A stretch of 64,000 nucleotides of DNA. It comes from a virus (Duplodnaviria > Caudoviricetes). The notes under the pieces were generated by a model. That model had not been told where the DNA came from and ran no database searches. It worked only from the letters and a program-made list of their open reading frames with translations. The position numbers were made by a program, and so were the translations under genes. Location of the stretch: the IMG/VR virus record IMGVR_UViG_3300021519_001244, positions 1,749 through 65,748 of that record. One strand, 5' to 3'. This document shows positions 18,558 through 62,508 of the stretch, one piece after another. Position 1 is the first letter of the stretch. Each line of letters starts with the position of its first letter.

Positions 18558-18607
18558 AAGTACGTAGTAAGCTCAATTAGATCGGCTAAGCCGTCGGGAG
18601 ACAATCG

Positions 18608-18799
18608 ATGATATCATTTAAAGCAAGTCTATTCAACACGGCCATGGACATAGACGAAATTGGTTTTTATACACAAGAAATTGGCGGCTACTTTGAAGTA
18701 CAGCGAGGTATCAGGGTAGAATATTTTATTCCGCAAGAATACAGAGATTTTATGATTTTAAAATATCCTTTCTTAGAAGAAGTACCTTATGTCTATTGA
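18608..18799 (+). CDS. hypothetical protein
   Basis: GGGAG SD; 63 aa. Confidence 0.55.
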   Translation: MISFKASLFNTAMDIDEIGFYTQEIGGYFEVQRGIRVEYFIPQEYRDFMILKYPFLEEVPYVY

Positions 18800-18965
18800 T
18801 ATAACAGAACTTAAGGCTCCGCCGGCCTGCCAAGTTCGTAGTTGTCAACATGGCGCCCAAATAATGGCCAAGTTTGGTCCCAATGTTACATATTTTAAAA
18901 CATGTCGACGACATACATACCAAGATCTAATACCACATAAGTTACAGAGCAACAATAATAAATAG
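18789..18965 (+). CDS. small Cys/His protein (58 aa)
   Basis: MSIDITELKAPPACQVRSC...TCRRH, possible Zn-binding; overlaps upstream stop. Confidence 0.45.
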   Translation: MSIDITELKAPPACQVRSCQHGAQIMAKFGPNVTYFKTCRRHTYQDLIPHKLQSNNNK

Positions 18966-19062
18966 GTATGTAAGTTTGATATTTACTGTTGCCTGTACAG
19001 GTTCTATAAAGCAGCACCGTGTTTTTTCGAGATCAAGAGAATAAAAATAAAGGATCTCGACA

Positions 19063-35415: not shown

Positions 35416-35477
35416 GTAAGATGCTGAATAGTTCGGGTCTTACAATAACATTTCGCTTAATAAAGGAAAATAAAATG
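35416..35477 (+). promoter_or_regulatory. second ROSE-like 5' UTR
   Basis: Hairpin GTAAGATGCTGAA-TAG-TTCGGGTCTTAC, then TTTCGCTT-AATA-AAGGAAA with a bulged G opposite the SD. Confidence 0.55.
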
Positions 35478-46374: not shown

Positions 46375-46532
46375 CTATCAAATCTTTACAAACTCAACTA
46401 AGTATTGATTTAGTTAACATAGAAGATTTGGCTTATTTAGAACCGGATCAATTAAAAATGGTAGAGGATGCATATCAGAAAGTATATGATATGTTATCAG
46501 AGTTAAACAAGAAGCAGGATACCCCCAAGTGA
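46371..46532 (+). CDS. small hypothetical protein (53 aa)
   Basis: ATGA overlap; fills gap. Confidence 0.5.
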   Translation: MTIKSLQTQLSIDLVNIEDLAYLEPDQLKMVEDAYQKVYDMLSELNKKQDTPK

Positions 46533-46700
46533 ATGGCCACTGTATGGGCATTATTTTTAATATGGGGGCAGTTAAATCCCACATTGAACTACTTGGCTAC
46601 ATACAAGGATGAAGCAGTTTGTAAGCAGGCAGTAAAAGAATTACAAGACAGTAAATTAAAGAGTGTATGTATACCCATGCAACCAGAGAATAAAAAATGA
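46533..46700 (+). CDS. small hypothetical protein (55 aa)
   Basis: Hydrophobic N-terminus, two Cys; ATGA overlap with next gene. Confidence 0.5.
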   Translation: MATVWALFLIWGQLNPTLNYLATYKDEAVCKQAVKELQDSKLKSVCIPMQPENKK

Positions 46701-52853: not shown

Positions 52854-52982
52854 ATGAGTAAATTTATCATTGGTGCTATTTTTGGTGTGATGATTTGTAC
52901 TGTTGGGTTTTCGGGTATCGCTCGAATGTTTGACAACGGTGTGGCCAAGGTACAGAGCGTGGCCAAGGATGCGGCAAAATGA
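52854..52982 (+). CDS. small membrane peptide (42 aa)
   Basis: AAGGAG SD; MSKFIIGAIFGVMICTVGFSG. Confidence 0.6.
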   Translation: MSKFIIGAIFGVMICTVGFSGIARMFDNGVAKVQSVAKDAAK

Positions 52983-53104
52983 AAATTGTATTTGCATTGA
53001 TTTTGGCAAGTGTGCTGTCCGCGTGTTCGACTGTGGCCGGTGTTGGTAAAGACATTTCTTCTGGTGCAGAATGGACCAAAGAAAAAATGGGCAAGGCGCT
53101 GTAA
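52979..53104 (+). CDS. entericidin A/B-family lipoprotein
   Basis: MKIVFALILASVLSA-CSTVAGVGKDISSG matches the L-x-A-C-x-T-x-x-G-x-G-x-D-I pattern. Confidence 0.75.
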   Translation: MKIVFALILASVLSACSTVAGVGKDISSGAEWTKEKMGKAL

Positions 53105-53129: not shown

Positions 53130-53160
53130 GGTTGACTCAAAATTTGAAATCAGCTATACT
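53130..53160 (+). promoter_or_regulatory. sigma70-type promoter
   Basis: TTGACT-17-TATACT. Confidence 0.75.
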
Positions 53161-53220
53161 TAGAATATGTCCAGTGTGTGGACATGGTAGTTTTAATTTA
53201 ACTTAAATGGAGTTTTAAAA

Positions 53221-53553
53221 ATGAGTAAACTGTTCAAAGTAGGTGGTGTTAGCAAGTGTAAGTCGGGTTATAAAGTTCGTTTCGCTAATGAAGTGACTCG
53301 TGTCAAGATCTTGGCTAAGACTGATACGGACATTCAACTGTTTGATTTGCCTAAGGCAATGGACAAAGCTGAATTGGTTACGTTTTTGAAGTCGCATGAG
53401 CTGTATGCTAATGCTGATTACAAAGCGGCAATTGATGCGGCTGATATCAAGTACAACAGCGTTAAGGTTGTTAGTACCAAGGCTACCAAGGTTAAGCCTA
53501 GTCTTGAGGCTATTAAGGCCCGTGCAACTAGCAAGCAGGCGGTTGCTGAGTAA
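53221..53553 (+). CDS. basic hypothetical protein
   Basis: GGAG SD; KVRFAN..RVKILAK..TDI.L..LP.AM.K. Confidence 0.75.
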   Translation: MSKLFKVGGVSKCKSGYKVRFANEVTRVKILAKTDTDIQLFDLPKAMDKAELVTFLKSHELYANADYKAAIDAADIKYNSVKVVSTKATKVKPSLEAIKARATSKQAVAE

Positions 53554-53558
53554 TTCAC

Positions 53559-54070
53559 GTAGGGGCATCGCCGAGAGGCGTATTAGTCCCTTACTATCTT
53601 TTAGCACATTGCCCGAACCGAGTTTCCGGTAGCAAGGCGAAAGCTGGCAAGTGTGCTAAAAAATAGCGGATAAGGACAAGTGCGTTCTTTTAGAGTCCCG
53701 AAAGGGTTCGCTTAATAAAGACTCTATAAAACGATGCGGGTGAATCCAGGTGCCACCTCCCAAAACCACCCTGGACGAATTTAGGTTATTCCAAAACGCA
53801 AGCCACGCGAAAGCAAAAAGACAAGCAAGGAATATTAAATGACCAAAGGTCAGCCAACTTGGACCCGCCTGGGTAACGCTGGGCTAGTATGACCCGTACG
53901 AAGGAGAAGTGAGTTCGTGACTCAAGGGTGGTAGTCTTTTTACCTAAAGGCCGCTGGCAATGCGTTAACGGAACCTGTCGTGGAGAGGGTGGAGGCTGTG
54001 TGTGATGATGTATTGGTCGTAAGCCAATATGTTTGATGCAGTATAATTACCTCCGGGGTTCGCAGAGCAT
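53559..54070 (+). ncRNA. large structured non-coding RNA(s), unclassified (GOLLD/ROOL-like class possible)
   Basis: No ORF of 60 aa or more, GC-richer than flanks, GNRA-capped hairpins and several long-range complementary segments. Confidence 0.65.
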
Positions 54071-54074
54071 TTTG

Positions 54075-54243
54075 TTTATATAGGTAAGTATTTGAGACTG
54101 AAAAGTGGGTATCGTTAGAAGACGTTCTAACTATTCGGGCCTAACCGGCGTGGAACAGGTCCTGATAAAACTAGCCGTACGCTATTGCCCGTGGGAGTTA
54201 GTCCGGACGCATAAATTGGCCCTCAAATACTTACCTATATAAA
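54075..54243 (+). ncRNA. 169-nt element closed by a perfect 22-bp inverted repeat
   Basis: TTTATATAGGTAAGTATTTGAG (54075-96) / CTCAAATACTTACCTATATAAA (54222-43). Confidence 0.55.
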
Positions 54244-54452
54244 TATTGTAGGCCTTTATATACTAATAGAACTGAAAGACTGGGTTGGTTCTAATGATAA
54301 TACCGACACTAAATAGATATACGAATATTTTACGGAGGGCGATGCCAACATAAATATTTTACAAAAGCAGTATTCAATAAACGGTTAAATTCCGCATAGG
54401 CAACAAGCTCAAAGTGTGTTACAATTTATAAACTTTTAAAAAGGAAATAAGA

Positions 54453-55175
54453 ATGAAGAAATTACTATTAGCAGTATTATTGGTCACTGGTATTACTACA
54501 GCCCAAGCACAGGTATCAGGCAATTTAGGATTAACAAGTGACTATCGTTTCCGCGGTATTAGCCAAAGTCAAAATGCACCAGCAGTACAAGGTGGTGTTG
54601 ATTACGCTCACTCAAGCGGTTTCTATGTTGGTAACTGGAACAGTTCAGTAAGCTCATCTGTTCACACAAACGGTTCTGGCGTTGAGAGCGATCTCTATGC
54701 TGGTTGGAAGAAAGATATTTACAAGGGCCTGACTCTTGATGTTGGTTCTTATAACTATTTTTACCCACGTGCTACCGCTGCAAGCACAGGCTCAAACTTT
54801 GACACATACGAAGGTTTTGCAGGTCTAGGTTATGGTCCGGTTAGCGTTAAGTACAGCCGTACACTAGGTAATGGTTATTTTGGTACAGCTAATGCTCAAG
54901 GTACACAATACTACCAAGCTGATGTAAACTATCCAATCGCTGGATCAAAGATTAGTTTGCTTGCTCACGCAGGTAAGACTAATGTTGCGAATCAAAGCAC
55001 AGGTGATTACAACGATTATAACTTTGGCGTTGGTTACGACTTAAAGGGCTGGAATTTAGCCGCTAAGTATTACACAAACACATCGTTAACAACTGCCGCT
55101 AAAACAGCAAATACAATCAATAGTCAAAAATTGTATAAGAATGCCGCTGTATTATCAGTAAGCAAATCATTCTAA
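54453..55175 (+). CDS. TorF-family (TIGR02001-like) outer-membrane beta-barrel
   Basis: Signal peptide; TSDYRFRGISQS..PAVQGGVDY-HSSGFYVGNW-S, ESDLYAG, C-terminal VSKSF. Confidence 0.88.
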   Translation: MKKLLLAVLLVTGITTAQAQVSGNLGLTSDYRFRGISQSQNAPAVQGGVDYAHSSGFYVGNWNSSVSSSVHTNGSGVESDLYAGWKKDIYKGLTLDVGSYNYFYPRATAASTGSNFDTYEGFAGLGYGPVSVKYSRTLGNGYFGTANAQGTQYYQADVNYPIAGSKISLLAHAGKTNVANQSTGDYNDYNFGVGYDLKGWNLAAKYYTNTSLTTAAKTANTINSQKLYKNAAVLSVSKSF

Positions 55176-60558: not shown

Positions 60559-60762
60559 ATGGCAACAGGTAAAGTTAAGTGGTTTAATGATGCAAAAGGT
60601 TTTGGATTTATTACACCTGATGGTGGTGGTGAAGATTTGTTTGCACATTTCTCAGCAATCAACAGCAGTGGATTTAAGTCACTGAAAGAAAATCAGCAAG
60701 TTACGTTTGATGTAACACAAGGCCCAAAAGGCAAACAAGCGTCAAATATTCAACCTCAGTAA
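60559..60762 (+). CDS. cold-shock protein (CspA family)
   Basis: [33 protein letters not shown]. Confidence 0.96.
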
Positions 60763-60764
60763 GG

Positions 60765-61118
60765 TTGTAAAGAATTGTTGTAATTCCTTCGTAGTGAAGG
60801 CATCTTGGACGCGGGGGCAGTACCCGCCCAGTCCACCAGAGAGTATATTATGATGTAATCTGAAGCCCAAACTAATCAAAATCGATAGATTATGATGAGG
60901 GCGGAACTTGTGTGTTGATAGCCTAACGGCAGGAGCCAAGATAATATACTCCCTAATGGGCTGGAAATAGTTTCGACAGGGTGAGATAGCGAAAGAGGCA
61001 ACACAGTAGGCGATGACTGTAAATCAAGCAAAATTATAACTGCAAACGATGAGTTATTCGCTTTAGCCGCTTAATACCGGCTTGCTGAGGTAGGGATACC
61101 AATAAACAGAAACTTCCA
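60765..61118 (+). ncRNA. ssrA: permuted (two-piece) tmRNA gene
   Basis: Acceptor piece ends CCAGTCC-ACCA at 60838; coding piece starts GGGCTGG-AAATAGTTTCGAC at 60958 (7-bp acceptor stem with G3.U70); tag 61042-61074 is ANDELFALAA*; outer ends approximate. Confidence 0.9.
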
Positions 61119-61119
61119 G

Positions 61120-61146
61120 AAAGCCCACTTTGGTGGGCTTTCTTTT
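61120..61146 (+). terminator. intrinsic terminator
   Basis: AAAGCCCAC-TTTG-GTGGGCTTT-CTTTT. Confidence 0.8.
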
Positions 61147-61176
61147 GTCAGTAAAATAATTGTATTAAATACTTAC

Positions 61177-62106: not shown

Positions 62107-62163
62107 CACCTTATTGCTGGTAAATTCTCTTTAAGAATCAACGACTTACGTAGCCTATATTTC

Positions 62164-62220
62164 GGTTGTCCAATAAATCCATTTCCTGTATAATATACAC
62201 TTACACTAGCGAAACGGAGA
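62164..62220 (+). promoter_or_regulatory. early promoter/RBS cassette, family B
   Basis: TTGTCC-17-TATAAT...ACACTAGCGAAACGGAGA; identical to 62903..62959. Confidence 0.85.
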
Positions 62221-62226
62221 CAGCAA

Positions 62227-62382
62227 ATGAACAAGAAAATTCAAAGATTACAGAAGTTGGCTCTCAAAGAAACTCAAAGACTTATCGCTCATCATAGTGA
62301 ACACCGAACTGCCCGTGTTGTGCGTGACAAGTTCGAGGAAGCACTGGCTCTCAAAGAAACTCAAAGACTTATCGCTCATTGA
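62227..62382 (+). CDS. small hypothetical protein (51 aa) with internal duplication
   Basis: 35-bp direct repeat 62258-62292 / 62345-62379 encoding LALKETQRLIAH twice. Confidence 0.5.
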   Translation: MNKKIQRLQKLALKETQRLIAHHSEHRTARVVRDKFEEALALKETQRLIAH

Positions 62383-62450
62383 GGGGATTGACCCCCAAGC
62401 GAATGCAGGTGATTGGATGTGCTAATTGGAGAATATGCAGGAATAAAATT

Positions 62451-62508
62451 GGTTGACTTCTGGTCTGATCCTGTGTATAATACACACTTACACTAGCAAA
62501 ACGGAGAA
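62451..62508 (+). promoter_or_regulatory. early promoter/RBS cassette (variant)
   Basis: TTGACT-17-TATAAT then ACACTTACACTAGCAAAACGGAGA. Confidence 0.8.

What the first reader, a model, noticed from the sequence alone, without database searches (positions are those of the whole stretch)
53559..54070. About 500 nt of ornate, pseudoknot-rich non-coding RNA
Seen: in an otherwise gene-packed genome this stretch has no ORF. Local stems: CGCC-GAGA-GGCG, TTTTAGCACATTGCC/GGCAAGTGTGCTAAAA three-way junction, TAGAGTC/GACTCTA with CCC-GAAA-GGG, TGACC/GGTCA, TGAGT/ACTCA, TATTGG/CCAATA. Long-range pairs: ACCACCCT 53765 with AGGGTGGT 53925, AAAAAGAC 53815 with GTCTTTTT 53934, TTTAGGT 53780 with ACCTAAA 53942, and TGCGGG 53735 with TTCGCA 54059. 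The three 3' partners are nearly contiguous, implying a pseudoknotted core. It also contains TTCGCTTAATAAAG (53707), identical to the phasin-like leader. Known: phages carry large ornate RNAs of unknown function (GOLLD, ROOL). Inference: a member of such a class or a new one, possibly several RNAs.
Basis: partly seen in the sequence, partly recalled or inferred. Interest (0 to 1): 0.75.

Follow-up and report, generated by a model that had tools for sequence, protein, structure and literature searches.

The report
Tandem small RNA genes, jumbo phage
The flagged stretch is not one giant RNA but a row of separate, intricately folded small RNA genes of a giant lake phage, none listed in the RNA catalogue, and what they do is still unknown.

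Summary
The ORF-free stretch is real and is the largest in the window (820 nt). It holds real structured RNA on the + strand, but as separate units, not one 500-nt molecule.

- **A1 (53559-53594):** GNRA-capped hairpin tied to the upstream 110-aa gene.
- **A2 (53594-53668):** three-way junction. The same element forms the spacer of a relative's permuted tmRNA.
- **B (53660-53782):** 123-nt double-pseudoknot RNA.
- **X (53783-53860):** strain-specific 78-nt insert.
- **C (53861-54071):** 211-nt RNA.

Covariation is strong for C (74 distinct sequences, 94% paired against 78.7% in shuffles, 0/500) and for B (14 distinct, 88.6% against 75.9%, 0/500).

The units assort independently. Their order differs between relatives. 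B accompanies C in only 3 of 99 C-bearing sources. In one 266-kb genome B and C lie 70 kb apart.

C normally sits inside phage tRNA arrays. This scan had already found that family on other DNA (e1-5900371, e1-5900377).

Rfam gives no hit even at E<=10, so this is neither GOLLD nor ROOL. A relative does carry GOLLD beside C.

Function is unknown.

The parts
53132..53160 (+). Sigma-70-like promoter (TTGACT, 17 nt, TATACT) upstream of the 110-aa gene. It is the only promoter-like site on the + strand before 54272, so it is the likely start of the transcript that carries the RNA units.
   Evidence: 10 of 12 matches; consensus scan only. A metatranscriptome contig covers 53149-53522 with 1 mismatch.
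53221..53553 (+). 110-aa conserved ORF of unknown function. It anchors the locus: relatives carry RNA units and/or tmRNA just downstream of it.
   Evidence: 36 related loci. No Pfam or PHROG family. Model pLDDT 76, no PDB fold match at E<=0.001.
53559..53594 (+). Unit A1: bipartite hairpin. The outer stem is GUAGGGGC/GUCCCUUAC. The inner stem is CGCC-GAGA-GGCG with a GNRA loop. It starts 6 nt after the stop codon. Likely a 3'-end element of the 110-aa mRNA.
   Evidence: Fold z = -2.9. Present after the gene in 6 distinct relatives, with compensatory changes in both stems and GNRA loops GAGA/GGGA/GUGA. No U-run, so not scored as a terminator.
53594..53668 (+). Unit A2: 75-nt three-way junction. 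It has a 15-bp closing stem, an ACCG/CGGU arm, and a GGC-GAAA-GCU arm.
   Evidence: Fold z = -3.8, 0 of 200 shuffles as stable. The core 17-mer is found in 12 viral contigs, of which 4 distinct true copies have fully different, complementary closing stems. In L196 it is the spacer inside a permuted tmRNA.
53660..53782 (+). Unit B: 123-nt double-pseudoknot RNA.
- P1: 53665-53670 with 53707-53712
- Hairpin: 53672-53689
- P2: 53691-53697 with 53720-53726
- CCC-GAAA-GGG: 53697-53706
- 3' H-type knot: S1 53738-53742 with 53754-53758; S2 53746-53750 with 53770-53774
   Evidence: Model R2 scores 116 bits. Covariation on 14 distinct sequences: 88.6% paired against 75.9% shuffled, 15 of 29 pairs changed on both sides, 0/500. 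P1 shows 5-6 of 6 pairs in all 14 when read register-aware.
53783..53860 (+). Unit X: window-specific 78-nt insert between B and C. It holds UAUUCC/GGAAUA and UGACC-AAA-GGUCA stems. Status unknown.
   Evidence: No homologue in the loci held. Relatives L015 and L010 join B to C by 8 nt. A DNA run carries a variant joining 53782 to 53861 through GTTGTAAA (tables 5 and 5c). Fold z = -0.8.
53861..54071 (+). Unit C: 211-nt RNA of the jumbo-phage tRNA-array family.
- P1: 53861-53864 with 54058-54061
- H1: 53867-53884
- H2: 53887-53899, whose loop ACCC (53892-53895) pairs with GGGU (53926-53929)
- H3: 53910-53924
- H4: 53934-53951
- H5: 53952-53964
- P6: 53983-53988 with 54050-54054
- P7: 53996-53999 with 54038-54041
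- k-turn-like GUGAUGA...UGA, then a variable hairpin: 54011-54029
- Invariant 3' tail GCAGAGCAU: 54062-54070
   Evidence: Model R1 scores 198 bits, with a single copy in the window. Covariation: 28 sequences, 93.4% against 80.9%, 21 of 40 pairs; 74 distinct sequences, 94.0% against 78.7%, 21 of 36 pairs, 0/500.
54075..54243 (+). Unit D (outside the flagged range, next in the array): 169-nt RNA closed by a perfect 22-bp stem.
   Evidence: I1. 8 sequences give 53 predicted pairs, 17 of them with changes on both sides. G-U pairs fit the + strand. D lies before B-C in L010 and after C in L015 and the window.
54249..54452 (+). Remaining 204 nt of the gap: leader of the Gcw_chp gene with promoter-like sites at 54272 and 54397. 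No homologue found.

Best explanation
The stretch 53559-54070 is most of a tandem array of separate small structured RNA genes, extending to unit D at 54243. It lies on the + strand just downstream of a conserved 110-aa gene, in a fragment of a freshwater jumbo phage.

**Shown:**
- Units A1, A2, B and C (and D) each fold on their own.
- Their helices are kept by compensatory changes.
- Each unit has its own distribution.
  - C belongs to a roughly 205-nt family that usually lies flush between tRNA genes in phage tRNA arrays.
  - B is a 123-nt double pseudoknot. Elsewhere it follows a tRNA or an ORF and precedes a promoter.
  - A2 also serves as the spacer of a permuted tmRNA.
  - A1 travels with the 110-aa gene.

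**Inferred:**
- The array is transcribed from the promoter-like site at 53132, through the 110-aa gene.
- Host RNases then cut it at AU-rich linkers and at D's long stem into stable RNAs of about 75, 125, 210 and 170 nt. In tRNA arrays, RNase P and tRNA 3' trimming would release C.
- Shuffling of the units between phages is driven by recombination and homing endonucleases.

**Function (weakest step, about 0.3):** these are trans-acting stable RNAs made during infection. They would bind a conserved host or phage partner tied to tRNA or translation. They are not regulators of neighbouring genes.
For: **Independence of the units**
- The order differs between relatives: L010 has D,B,C; L015 has B,C,D; L013 has A,C; L006 and L011 have D only.
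- B is found with C in 3 of 99 C-bearing sources.
- In record G005, C lies at 174,657 and B at 105,038. In 5 large records, C is present in 3 and B in 1.

**RNA-level constraint**
- Covariation was measured.
- Many conserved G-U pairs would be A-C on the other strand (for example UG:61, UG:52 and UG:44).
- Hairpin extensions are replaced by a GCAA tetraloop in L054.

**tRNA-array context of C**
- 18 of 28 viral loci have a tRNA within 100 nt, 22 of 28 within 250 nt, and 10 abut the C 5' end with a gap of 0-2 nt.

**Other links**
- tmRNA lies close downstream of the 110-aa gene in relatives.
- A2 lies inside the L196 tmRNA.
- In L211, a GIY-YIG/NUMOD3 ORF sits between a 5' fragment of one C and a full C.

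**RNA libraries**
- Two metatranscriptomes from two studies hold contigs on the C core, from relatives, and on the 110-aa gene of this phage.
Against: - No transcript ends, strand or processing sites have been observed. The runs are contigs, and an RNA library can carry DNA.
- The window has no tRNA genes, so the release route inferred for C in tRNA arrays does not apply here.
- C is absent from 2 of 5 large related records, one of them 97% complete, so it is dispensable.
- Thermodynamic folding alone is not exceptional for B (z = +1.2), C (z = -0.6) or X (z = -0.8).
- The complementarity ACCACCC(U/A) with (A/U)GGGUGGU between B and C is kept in all 3 genomes that have both units. A B-C contact in this lineage is therefore not excluded.
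- No binding partner or activity is known.
Confidence: 0.78

Rival explanations
1. One large ornate RNA of about 500 nt or more, with a pseudoknotted core formed by long-range pairs between the B region, the insert and the C region.
For: The complementary words exist. The B-C word pair is complementary in all 3 genomes that have both units, including a U-A to A-U switch. B, X and C are contiguous without promoter-like sites between them.
Against: - C occurs without B in 96 of 99 sources, and 70 kb from B in G005.
- The switch is accounted for by local helices that covary: B stem S2 is 100% paired with all 5 pairs changed on both sides, and C hairpin H3 covaries too.
- Two of the four pairs involve insert X, which relatives and a strain variant lack.
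- Their C-side partner forms hairpin H4, which has 4 of 6 pairs with changes on both sides.
- The count of long-range complementary words is at chance level.
Confidence: 0.05
2. The units are cis-acting parts of messenger RNAs, not free RNAs. They would be 3'-end stabilisers or terminators of the upstream gene, or leaders or riboswitches of the downstream gene.
For: - A1 follows the stop codon of the 110-aa gene in 6 distinct relatives, whatever comes next.
- In 7 of 9 other contexts read, B lies just upstream of a TTGACA-N17-TATAAT promoter, at the end of a transcription unit.
- In L084 and L082 the last stem of B is followed by a U-rich run.
Against: - The neighbours of C vary (tRNAs, ORFs, unit D), and C often has tRNAs on both sides.
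- B follows tRNAs in L119, L165 and L166.
- No terminator-like site is scored in 53559-54070 on the + strand.
- No riboswitch family matches.
Confidence: 0.12
3. The units are mobile DNA cassettes (MITE-like elements or homing-endonuclease cargo). Their symmetry would act at the DNA level, with no RNA function.
For: The units are shuffled between genomes. D has a perfect 22-bp terminal inverted repeat. A homing-endonuclease-like ORF interrupts the C locus in L211.
Against: - The helices tolerate G-U but not A-C, which marks a strand-specific RNA constraint.
- GNRA loops and pseudoknots are conserved.
- Each unit is single-copy in the record.
- No target-site duplications were seen.
Confidence: 0.05

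Closest known systems
GOLLD and ROOL RNAs (Rfam RF02032, RF03087)
   Same: Ornate, pseudoknotted RNAs of phages and prophages with unknown function, 'often near tRNA islands' (passages of 10.1101/2024.12.08.627333 read). GOLLD lies in the same tRNA array as a unit C copy in L211.
   Different: No sequence or structure match. The units here are 75-211 nt, not 400-800 nt or more. They are several separate genes. No evidence of self-assembly.
Stable RNAs 'species 1 and 2' (rnaC, rnaD) of the phage T4 tRNA gene cluster
   Same: Small stable RNAs of unknown function encoded among phage tRNA genes and released with them. This comparison was also made by earlier agents of this scan (e1-5900371, e1-5900377).
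   Different: Recalled knowledge: no T4 sequence was compared here. The phage collection gave no match to the window stretch. In this window the RNAs are not among tRNAs.
Intervening segment of two-piece (permuted) tmRNA genes
   Same: Unit A2 occupies exactly this position in L196, between ...GTCCACC and the GGGCC... 5' end. The window's own tmRNA has a different long hairpin there.
   Different: In the window and in L013, A2 stands alone after a protein gene, about 7 kb from the tmRNA.
SegB-type free-standing homing endonucleases of the T4 tRNA region
   Same: A GIY-YIG-family endonuclease gene inside a phage tRNA cluster drives preferential inheritance of that region (PMC2330249; listing and start of abstract seen). 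L211 has a NUMOD3/GIY-YIG-like ORF wedged into the C locus.
   Different: No such ORF lies in the window's array. The GIY-YIG score (17.7 bits) is below Pfam's cut-off, while NUMOD3 (25.9 bits) passes.

Membership tests
GOLLD (RF02032) | Match to the Rfam covariance model at or above 150 bits | tested here: not met
   No match in the window at gathering score, nor at E<=10 in 53300-54500. Positive control: 226 bits in L211.
ROOL, RNase P RNA, group I/II introns, riboswitches, small ribozymes (all 4227 Rfam families) | Any covariance-model match | tested here: not met
   0 matches at E<=10 over 53300-54500, both strands. In 33 related loci only tRNA, tmRNA and one GOLLD were found.
Jumbo-phage tRNA-array RNA of about 205 nt (unit C; uncatalogued, seen earlier by this scan) | Full-length match to a model built from family members | tested here: met
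   198.1 bits over model positions 1-211. The window was itself among the 28 sequences used to build the model. The other 99 matches range from 33 to 239 bits.
Jumbo-phage tRNA-array RNA of about 205 nt (unit C) | Helices kept by compensatory change | tested here: met
   All 9 nested helices plus the pseudoknot can form in the window copy (read).
Jumbo-phage tRNA-array RNA of about 205 nt (unit C) | Location inside a tRNA gene array | tested here: not met
   The window has no tRNA gene. 6 of 28 viral loci likewise have none. Context is typical of the family but not universal.
Unit B family (123-nt double pseudoknot; uncatalogued) | Model match and five covarying helices, including two crossing pairs of helices | tested here: met
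   116.2 bits; counts. Only 14 distinct sequences, all sharing the 14-nt seed used to find them, so family breadth is underestimated and the seed columns are uninformative.
Kink-turn (C/D-like GUGAUGA ... UGA) in unit C | Tandem sheared G-A pairs next to a 3-nt bulge. Recognised here only as a sequence pattern, recalled from knowledge. | not testable with these tools
   The pattern is present at 54002-54008 and 54034-54036. It is lost in L043, L054 and L058, so it is optional.
Intrinsic terminator (for A1) | GC-rich hairpin followed by a U-run | tested here: not met
   No terminator-like site on the + strand at 53559-53600.

The most novel reading that the evidence does not exclude
Units C, B and D are a toolkit of phage-made RNAs that act directly on the host's tRNA or translation machinery.
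- For example, C could be a compact RNA that docks onto tRNAs or ribosomes through its invariant junctions and 3' tail.
- Alternatively, they could assemble into RNA-only particles, as GOLLD and ROOL do.
- On this reading the tRNA islands of giant phages are general 'RNA organelle' loci holding several undiscovered functional RNA classes.
Probability: 0.15. Interest if true: 0.85.

Novelty: new variant of a known kind. Interest (0 to 1): 0.6.

Why it matters
Phage tRNA islands are already known to harbour the enigmatic GOLLD and ROOL RNAs. This locus shows that freshwater jumbo phages carry further, smaller RNA classes absent from Rfam, each with strong covariation:
- a 211-nt pseudoknotted RNA
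- a 123-nt double pseudoknot
- a three-way junction shared with a tmRNA spacer
- a 169-nt clamped RNA

These classes move between tRNA arrays, tmRNA genes and protein-gene 3' regions.

They are compact enough for structure determination and biochemical screening. They could therefore make the long-open question of what phage tRNA-island RNAs do more tractable.

The finding also corrects a tempting misreading: a contiguous ORF-free stretch full of stems is not necessarily one giant RNA.

Tried and rejected
**Database searches that found nothing or little**
- Rfam at the gathering threshold and at E<=10: nothing in the stretch.
- blastn of 53200-54460 against 50,697 phage records: no match.
- Exact C 3' motif in 185,579 species' genome contigs: 0 hits. 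No bacterial or prophage copy was found at that stringency.

**Folding energy**
- Whole stretch: z = -1.8 on the + strand and -3.0 on the - strand.
- By unit: B z = +1.2, C z = -0.6, X z = -0.8.
- These values are uninformative for pseudoknotted RNAs and point to the wrong strand. I relied on comparative evidence instead.

**Target search for C's invariant 3' tail**
- The complement TGCTCTGCGAAC has 5 matches with up to 2 mismatches in the window, one of them the site itself, against 2.5 expected (9 of 100 shuffles reach 5). No target was found.

**The 110-aa protein**
- No Pfam or PHROG family.
- No usable Atlas hit.
- The AlphaFold model has pLDDT 76, but there is no PDB fold match at E<=0.001. 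I could not link it to RNA binding.

**RNA runs**
- In the two metatranscriptomes laid (X16, X20), no contig covered A1, A2 or B, and X16 had none over 53537-53871.
- These are contigs, so this says nothing about absence of transcription.
- The runs with small shares listed that I did not lay were not used for habitat.

**Ideas considered and dropped (my own reading)**
- I considered RNase P-like, hammerhead-like, HDV-like, T-box-like and guanidine-III-like readings of B, C and A2. I dropped each because key conserved positions do not fit and Rfam models of those families do not match.

**Not done**
- I built no model for A2. Only 4 distinct sequences exist and the MAFFT alignment of its closing stem is out of register.
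- MAFFT and Infernal both left 5 rows of B's helix P1 one column out of register, which lowers the tool's count for that helix (71% paired). A register-aware count gives 5-6 of 6 pairs in all 14 rows.

**Literature limits**
- The supplementary lists of the 8,495 unnamed IMG/VR candidates in PMC10690425 (29-151 nt long; passages read) are closed. A2, B or pieces of C may be among them.
- My claim 'not catalogued' rests on Rfam 15 and on paper searches only.

Full report
**Setting.** The window is 64,000 of the 65,748 bases of an IMG/VR virus record. CheckV rates the record 19% complete, so it is a fragment of a jumbo phage. Relatives found through the neighbouring gene lie on contigs of 265-357 kb. 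The only Rfam or ARAGORN gene in the window is a permuted, betaproteobacterial-type tmRNA at 60727-61165. There are no tRNA genes.

**The observation.**
- The flagged stretch follows a 110-aa ORF (53221-53553). The ORF-free gap really extends to 54452.
- With ORFs of at least 60 aa masked on both strands, the gap is the largest in the window: 820 nt, against 386 nt for the next.
- The 14-mer TTCGCTTAATAAAG is indeed repeated at 35452, in the leader of an ORF starting at 35476. No other similarity to unit B is visible there. In B the word is the 3' strand of a pseudoknot helix, so I leave the repeat unexplained.

**It is modular.**
- The 110-aa protein recovered 36 related viral loci.
- blastn of the gap against them breaks it into blocks that occur in different combinations and orders:
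  - A: 53557-53666
  - B: 53662-53782
  - a window-only 78-nt insert X: 53783-53860
  - C: 53861-54070
  - D: 54078-54248
  - a unique 204-nt leader
- L010 has D,B,C. L015 has B,C,D. L013 has A,C. L006, L008 and L011 have D without B or C.
- A DNA run carries a strain variant in which 53782 is joined to 53861 through GTTGTAAA. That is the junction seen in L015 and L010 (tables 5 and 5c).
- In many relatives the tmRNA gene lies 0.3-1.5 kb downstream of the 110-aa gene. The locus is therefore a general home for RNA genes. In the window, a Gcw_chp porin-like gene, a tail-fibre-like gene and a radical-SAM gene separate the tmRNA from it.

**Unit C.**
- An exact 16-nt word from its 3' end hit 40 viral contigs. 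Of these, 7 are chance hits in GC-rich coding DNA and 33 are true, giving 28 distinct sequences besides the window.
- An internal degenerate word hit 71 metagenome contigs.
- I derived a structure by eye from the alignment. It has a short closing helix, five hairpins, a long-range helix, a helix leading into a k-turn-like GUGAUGA/UGA motif with a variable hairpin, and a pseudoknot between the loop of hairpin 2 (ACCC) and GGGU.
- On the MAFFT alignment of 28 sequences:
  - 93.4% of cells pair, against 80.9% in shuffles (0/500).
  - 21 of 40 pairs change on both sides.
  - The score is 0.370, against 0.135 in shuffles and at most 0.080 for slid partners.
- Model R1 then found 100 matches in 99 sources. 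On that alignment (74 distinct rows), 94.0% of cells pair against 78.7%. Of 36 pairs, 21 change on both sides, and the score is 0.406 against 0.134 (0/500). That alignment is fitted to the model and so leans towards the structure. The MAFFT result does not have that bias.
- The pseudoknot has one supporting double change (A-U to G-C in 2 of 28 sequences). It is therefore plausible but thinly supported.
- The 4-bp closing helix never changes on both sides.
- The variable hairpin is replaced by a GCAA tetraloop in L054, and hairpin 4 carries a 51-nt insertion in L050. This is the behaviour expected of a folded RNA.
- Abundant conserved U-G pairs fix the + strand.
- The window copy scores 198 bits and is the only copy in the window.

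**Context of C.**
- Of the 28 viral loci scanned with ARAGORN:
  - 18 have a tRNA within 100 nt of C.
  - 22 have one within 250 nt.
  - In 10, the C 5' end abuts a tRNA 3' end (gap 0-2 nt).
  - In L043, L053, L063 and L066 the next tRNA starts 1-8 nt after C.
  - 6 loci have no tRNA at all. These include the window's closest relatives.
- C is single-copy in 3 of 5 large related records. It is absent from 2, one of them 97% complete.
- It was not found in cultured-phage records or in bacterial and archaeal genomes by exact motif.
- Earlier agents of this scan reached the same family from other genomes (e1-5900371, e1-5900377). My tests agree with them.

**Unit B.**
- A 14-nt seed gave at least 119 hits, nearly all by chance. 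Those that also carry a downstream CAAAACC word form a family.
- A longer pattern found 16 contigs.
- The fold has two crossing systems:
  - A 5' strand (AGCGGA in the window) pairs with UUCGCU, which lies inside the loop closed by UAGAGUC/GACUCUA.
  - A 3' H-type knot, in which GGGUG pairs with CACCU inside the loop of stem CCAGG/CCUGG, followed by a conserved A-rich strand.
- On 14 distinct sequences:
  - 88.6% of cells pair, against 75.9% in shuffles (0/500).
  - 15 of 29 pairs change on both sides.
  - Stem S2 is 100% paired, with all 5 pairs changed on both sides.
- Helix P1 is undercounted because 5 rows sit one column out of register. Read register-aware, it has 5-6 of 6 pairs in all 14 rows.
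- B is independent of C:
  - It accompanies C in 3 of 99 sources.
  - In G005 it lies about 70 kb from C.
  - Elsewhere it follows a tRNA (L119, L165, L166) or an ORF and usually precedes a strong promoter-like site.

**Units A1, A2 and X.**
- **A1** sits 5-8 nt after the stop codon of the 110-aa gene in six distinct relatives. It shows compensatory changes in both stems and always has a GNRA loop. It has no U-run. I read it as a 3'-end element of that mRNA.
- **A2** is a stable three-way junction (z = -3.8). Its 33-nt core is nearly invariant, while its closing stem is completely different yet complementary in the four distinct copies.
- In L196, A2 lies between the acceptor piece and the coding piece of a permuted tmRNA. 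The window's own tmRNA has an unrelated long hairpin at that position.
- **X** has no homologue and no exceptional fold.

**The long-range pairs.**
- ACCACCCU/AGGGUGGU: the B strand overlaps stem S2 of B. The C strand overlaps hairpin 3 and the pseudoknot of C.
  - The complementarity does persist in the three genomes with both units. The one double change is explained by the local helices.
  - The B-side word ACCAYCC is also present in B copies that have no C nearby.
- The two pairs with insert X use the strands of C hairpin 4. In that hairpin, 4 of 6 pairs change on both sides across the family.
  - The UUUUU variant that seemed matched to X also occurs in L051, which lacks X.
- TGCGGG/TTCGCA uses the invariant closing strand of C and a variable position of B.
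- The number of long-range complementary 7- and 8-mers is at chance level.

**Expression.** Evidence is thin.
- One metatranscriptome has a contig matching 53149-53522 with one mismatch and another matching 54232-54416 exactly.
- Two metatranscriptomes from two studies have contigs from relatives on the C core, 53921-54007.
- RNA libraries can contain DNA, and contigs show neither strand nor ends.

**Mosaicism.**
- In L211, part of a 301-kb contig, the same tRNA array holds a GOLLD RNA (226 bits) and a unit C.
- A 175-aa ORF with a NUMOD3 motif and a sub-threshold GIY-YIG match lies between a 48-nt 5' fragment of one C variant and a complete C of the other variant.
- This resembles the free-standing homing endonuclease SegB of the T4 tRNA cluster (PMC2330249, abstract seen). 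It offers a mechanism for the shuffling.

**Comparison and novelty.**
- The closest known things are GOLLD and ROOL. These are phage RNAs of unknown function near tRNA islands, now known to form RNA-only cages (passages read).
- From recall, the T4 stable RNAs species 1 and 2 are also close.
- The units here match none of the 4227 Rfam families.
- A 2023 survey of IMG/VR lists 8,495 unnamed candidates of 29-151 nt.
- I therefore class the finding as new families within a known kind. The C family was already met by this scan.

**Verdict.** This is real, structured RNA, in several units rather than one. Function is unknown.

Noticed in passing
window 54075-54243: Unit D: a 169-nt RNA closed by a perfect 22-bp stem (another note of this scan, e1-6232888). 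Across 8 sequences, 17 of 53 predicted pairs change on both sides. D sits before B-C in L010 but after C in the window and L015.
   Followed up: partly
window 60727-61165: Permuted two-piece tmRNA of betaproteobacterial type, with tag ANDELFALAA and an intervening hairpin of about 115 nt. In many relatives the tmRNA lies within 0.3-1.5 kb of the 110-aa gene; here it is 7 kb away.
   Followed up: partly
L211:661-3136: One tRNA array of a 301-kb metagenome contig holds GOLLD (226 bits, with a tRNA inside it), a 5' fragment of unit C, a NUMOD3/GIY-YIG-like ORF (2407-2931), and then a complete unit C.
   Followed up: partly
L010:4884-5089; L015:5110-5302: A further conserved non-coding block ('F') follows the RNA units in L006, L007, L010, L011, L013 and L015. 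It is absent from the window.
   Followed up: no
window 54453-55175: A Gcw_chp family outer-membrane-type protein (Pfam E = 1e-50) with a signal-peptide-like start is encoded in the phage, apparently as an insertion relative to most relatives. L004 and L005 have a 237-aa ORF at the same place.
   Followed up: no
window 52979-53104: A 41-aa ORF with a lipoprotein-like start gives a weak entericidin match (20.1 bits, below the 23.3 cut-off).
   Followed up: no
window 35452-35465: An exact second copy of the 14-mer TTCGCTTAATAAAG lies 10 nt upstream of an ATG at 35476. No other likeness to unit B is visible there. Unexplained.
   Followed up: partly
window 62107-62492, 46375-46696, 18558-19062: These are the next largest stretches without an ORF of 60-80 aa. 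They were not examined for RNA genes.
   Followed up: no
window 53221-53553: The 110-aa protein is conserved in 36 viral loci and folds confidently over residues 1-80 (mean pLDDT 76). It has no Pfam, PHROG or PDB fold match. It always precedes RNA genes.
   Followed up: partly
L050:7402-7666; L210, L223, L253, L270 and others: Long forms of unit C (about 265 nt) carry an insertion of about 50 nt in the loop of hairpin 4. L159 has a short, divergent form of about 130 nt directly after a unit B.
   Followed up: no
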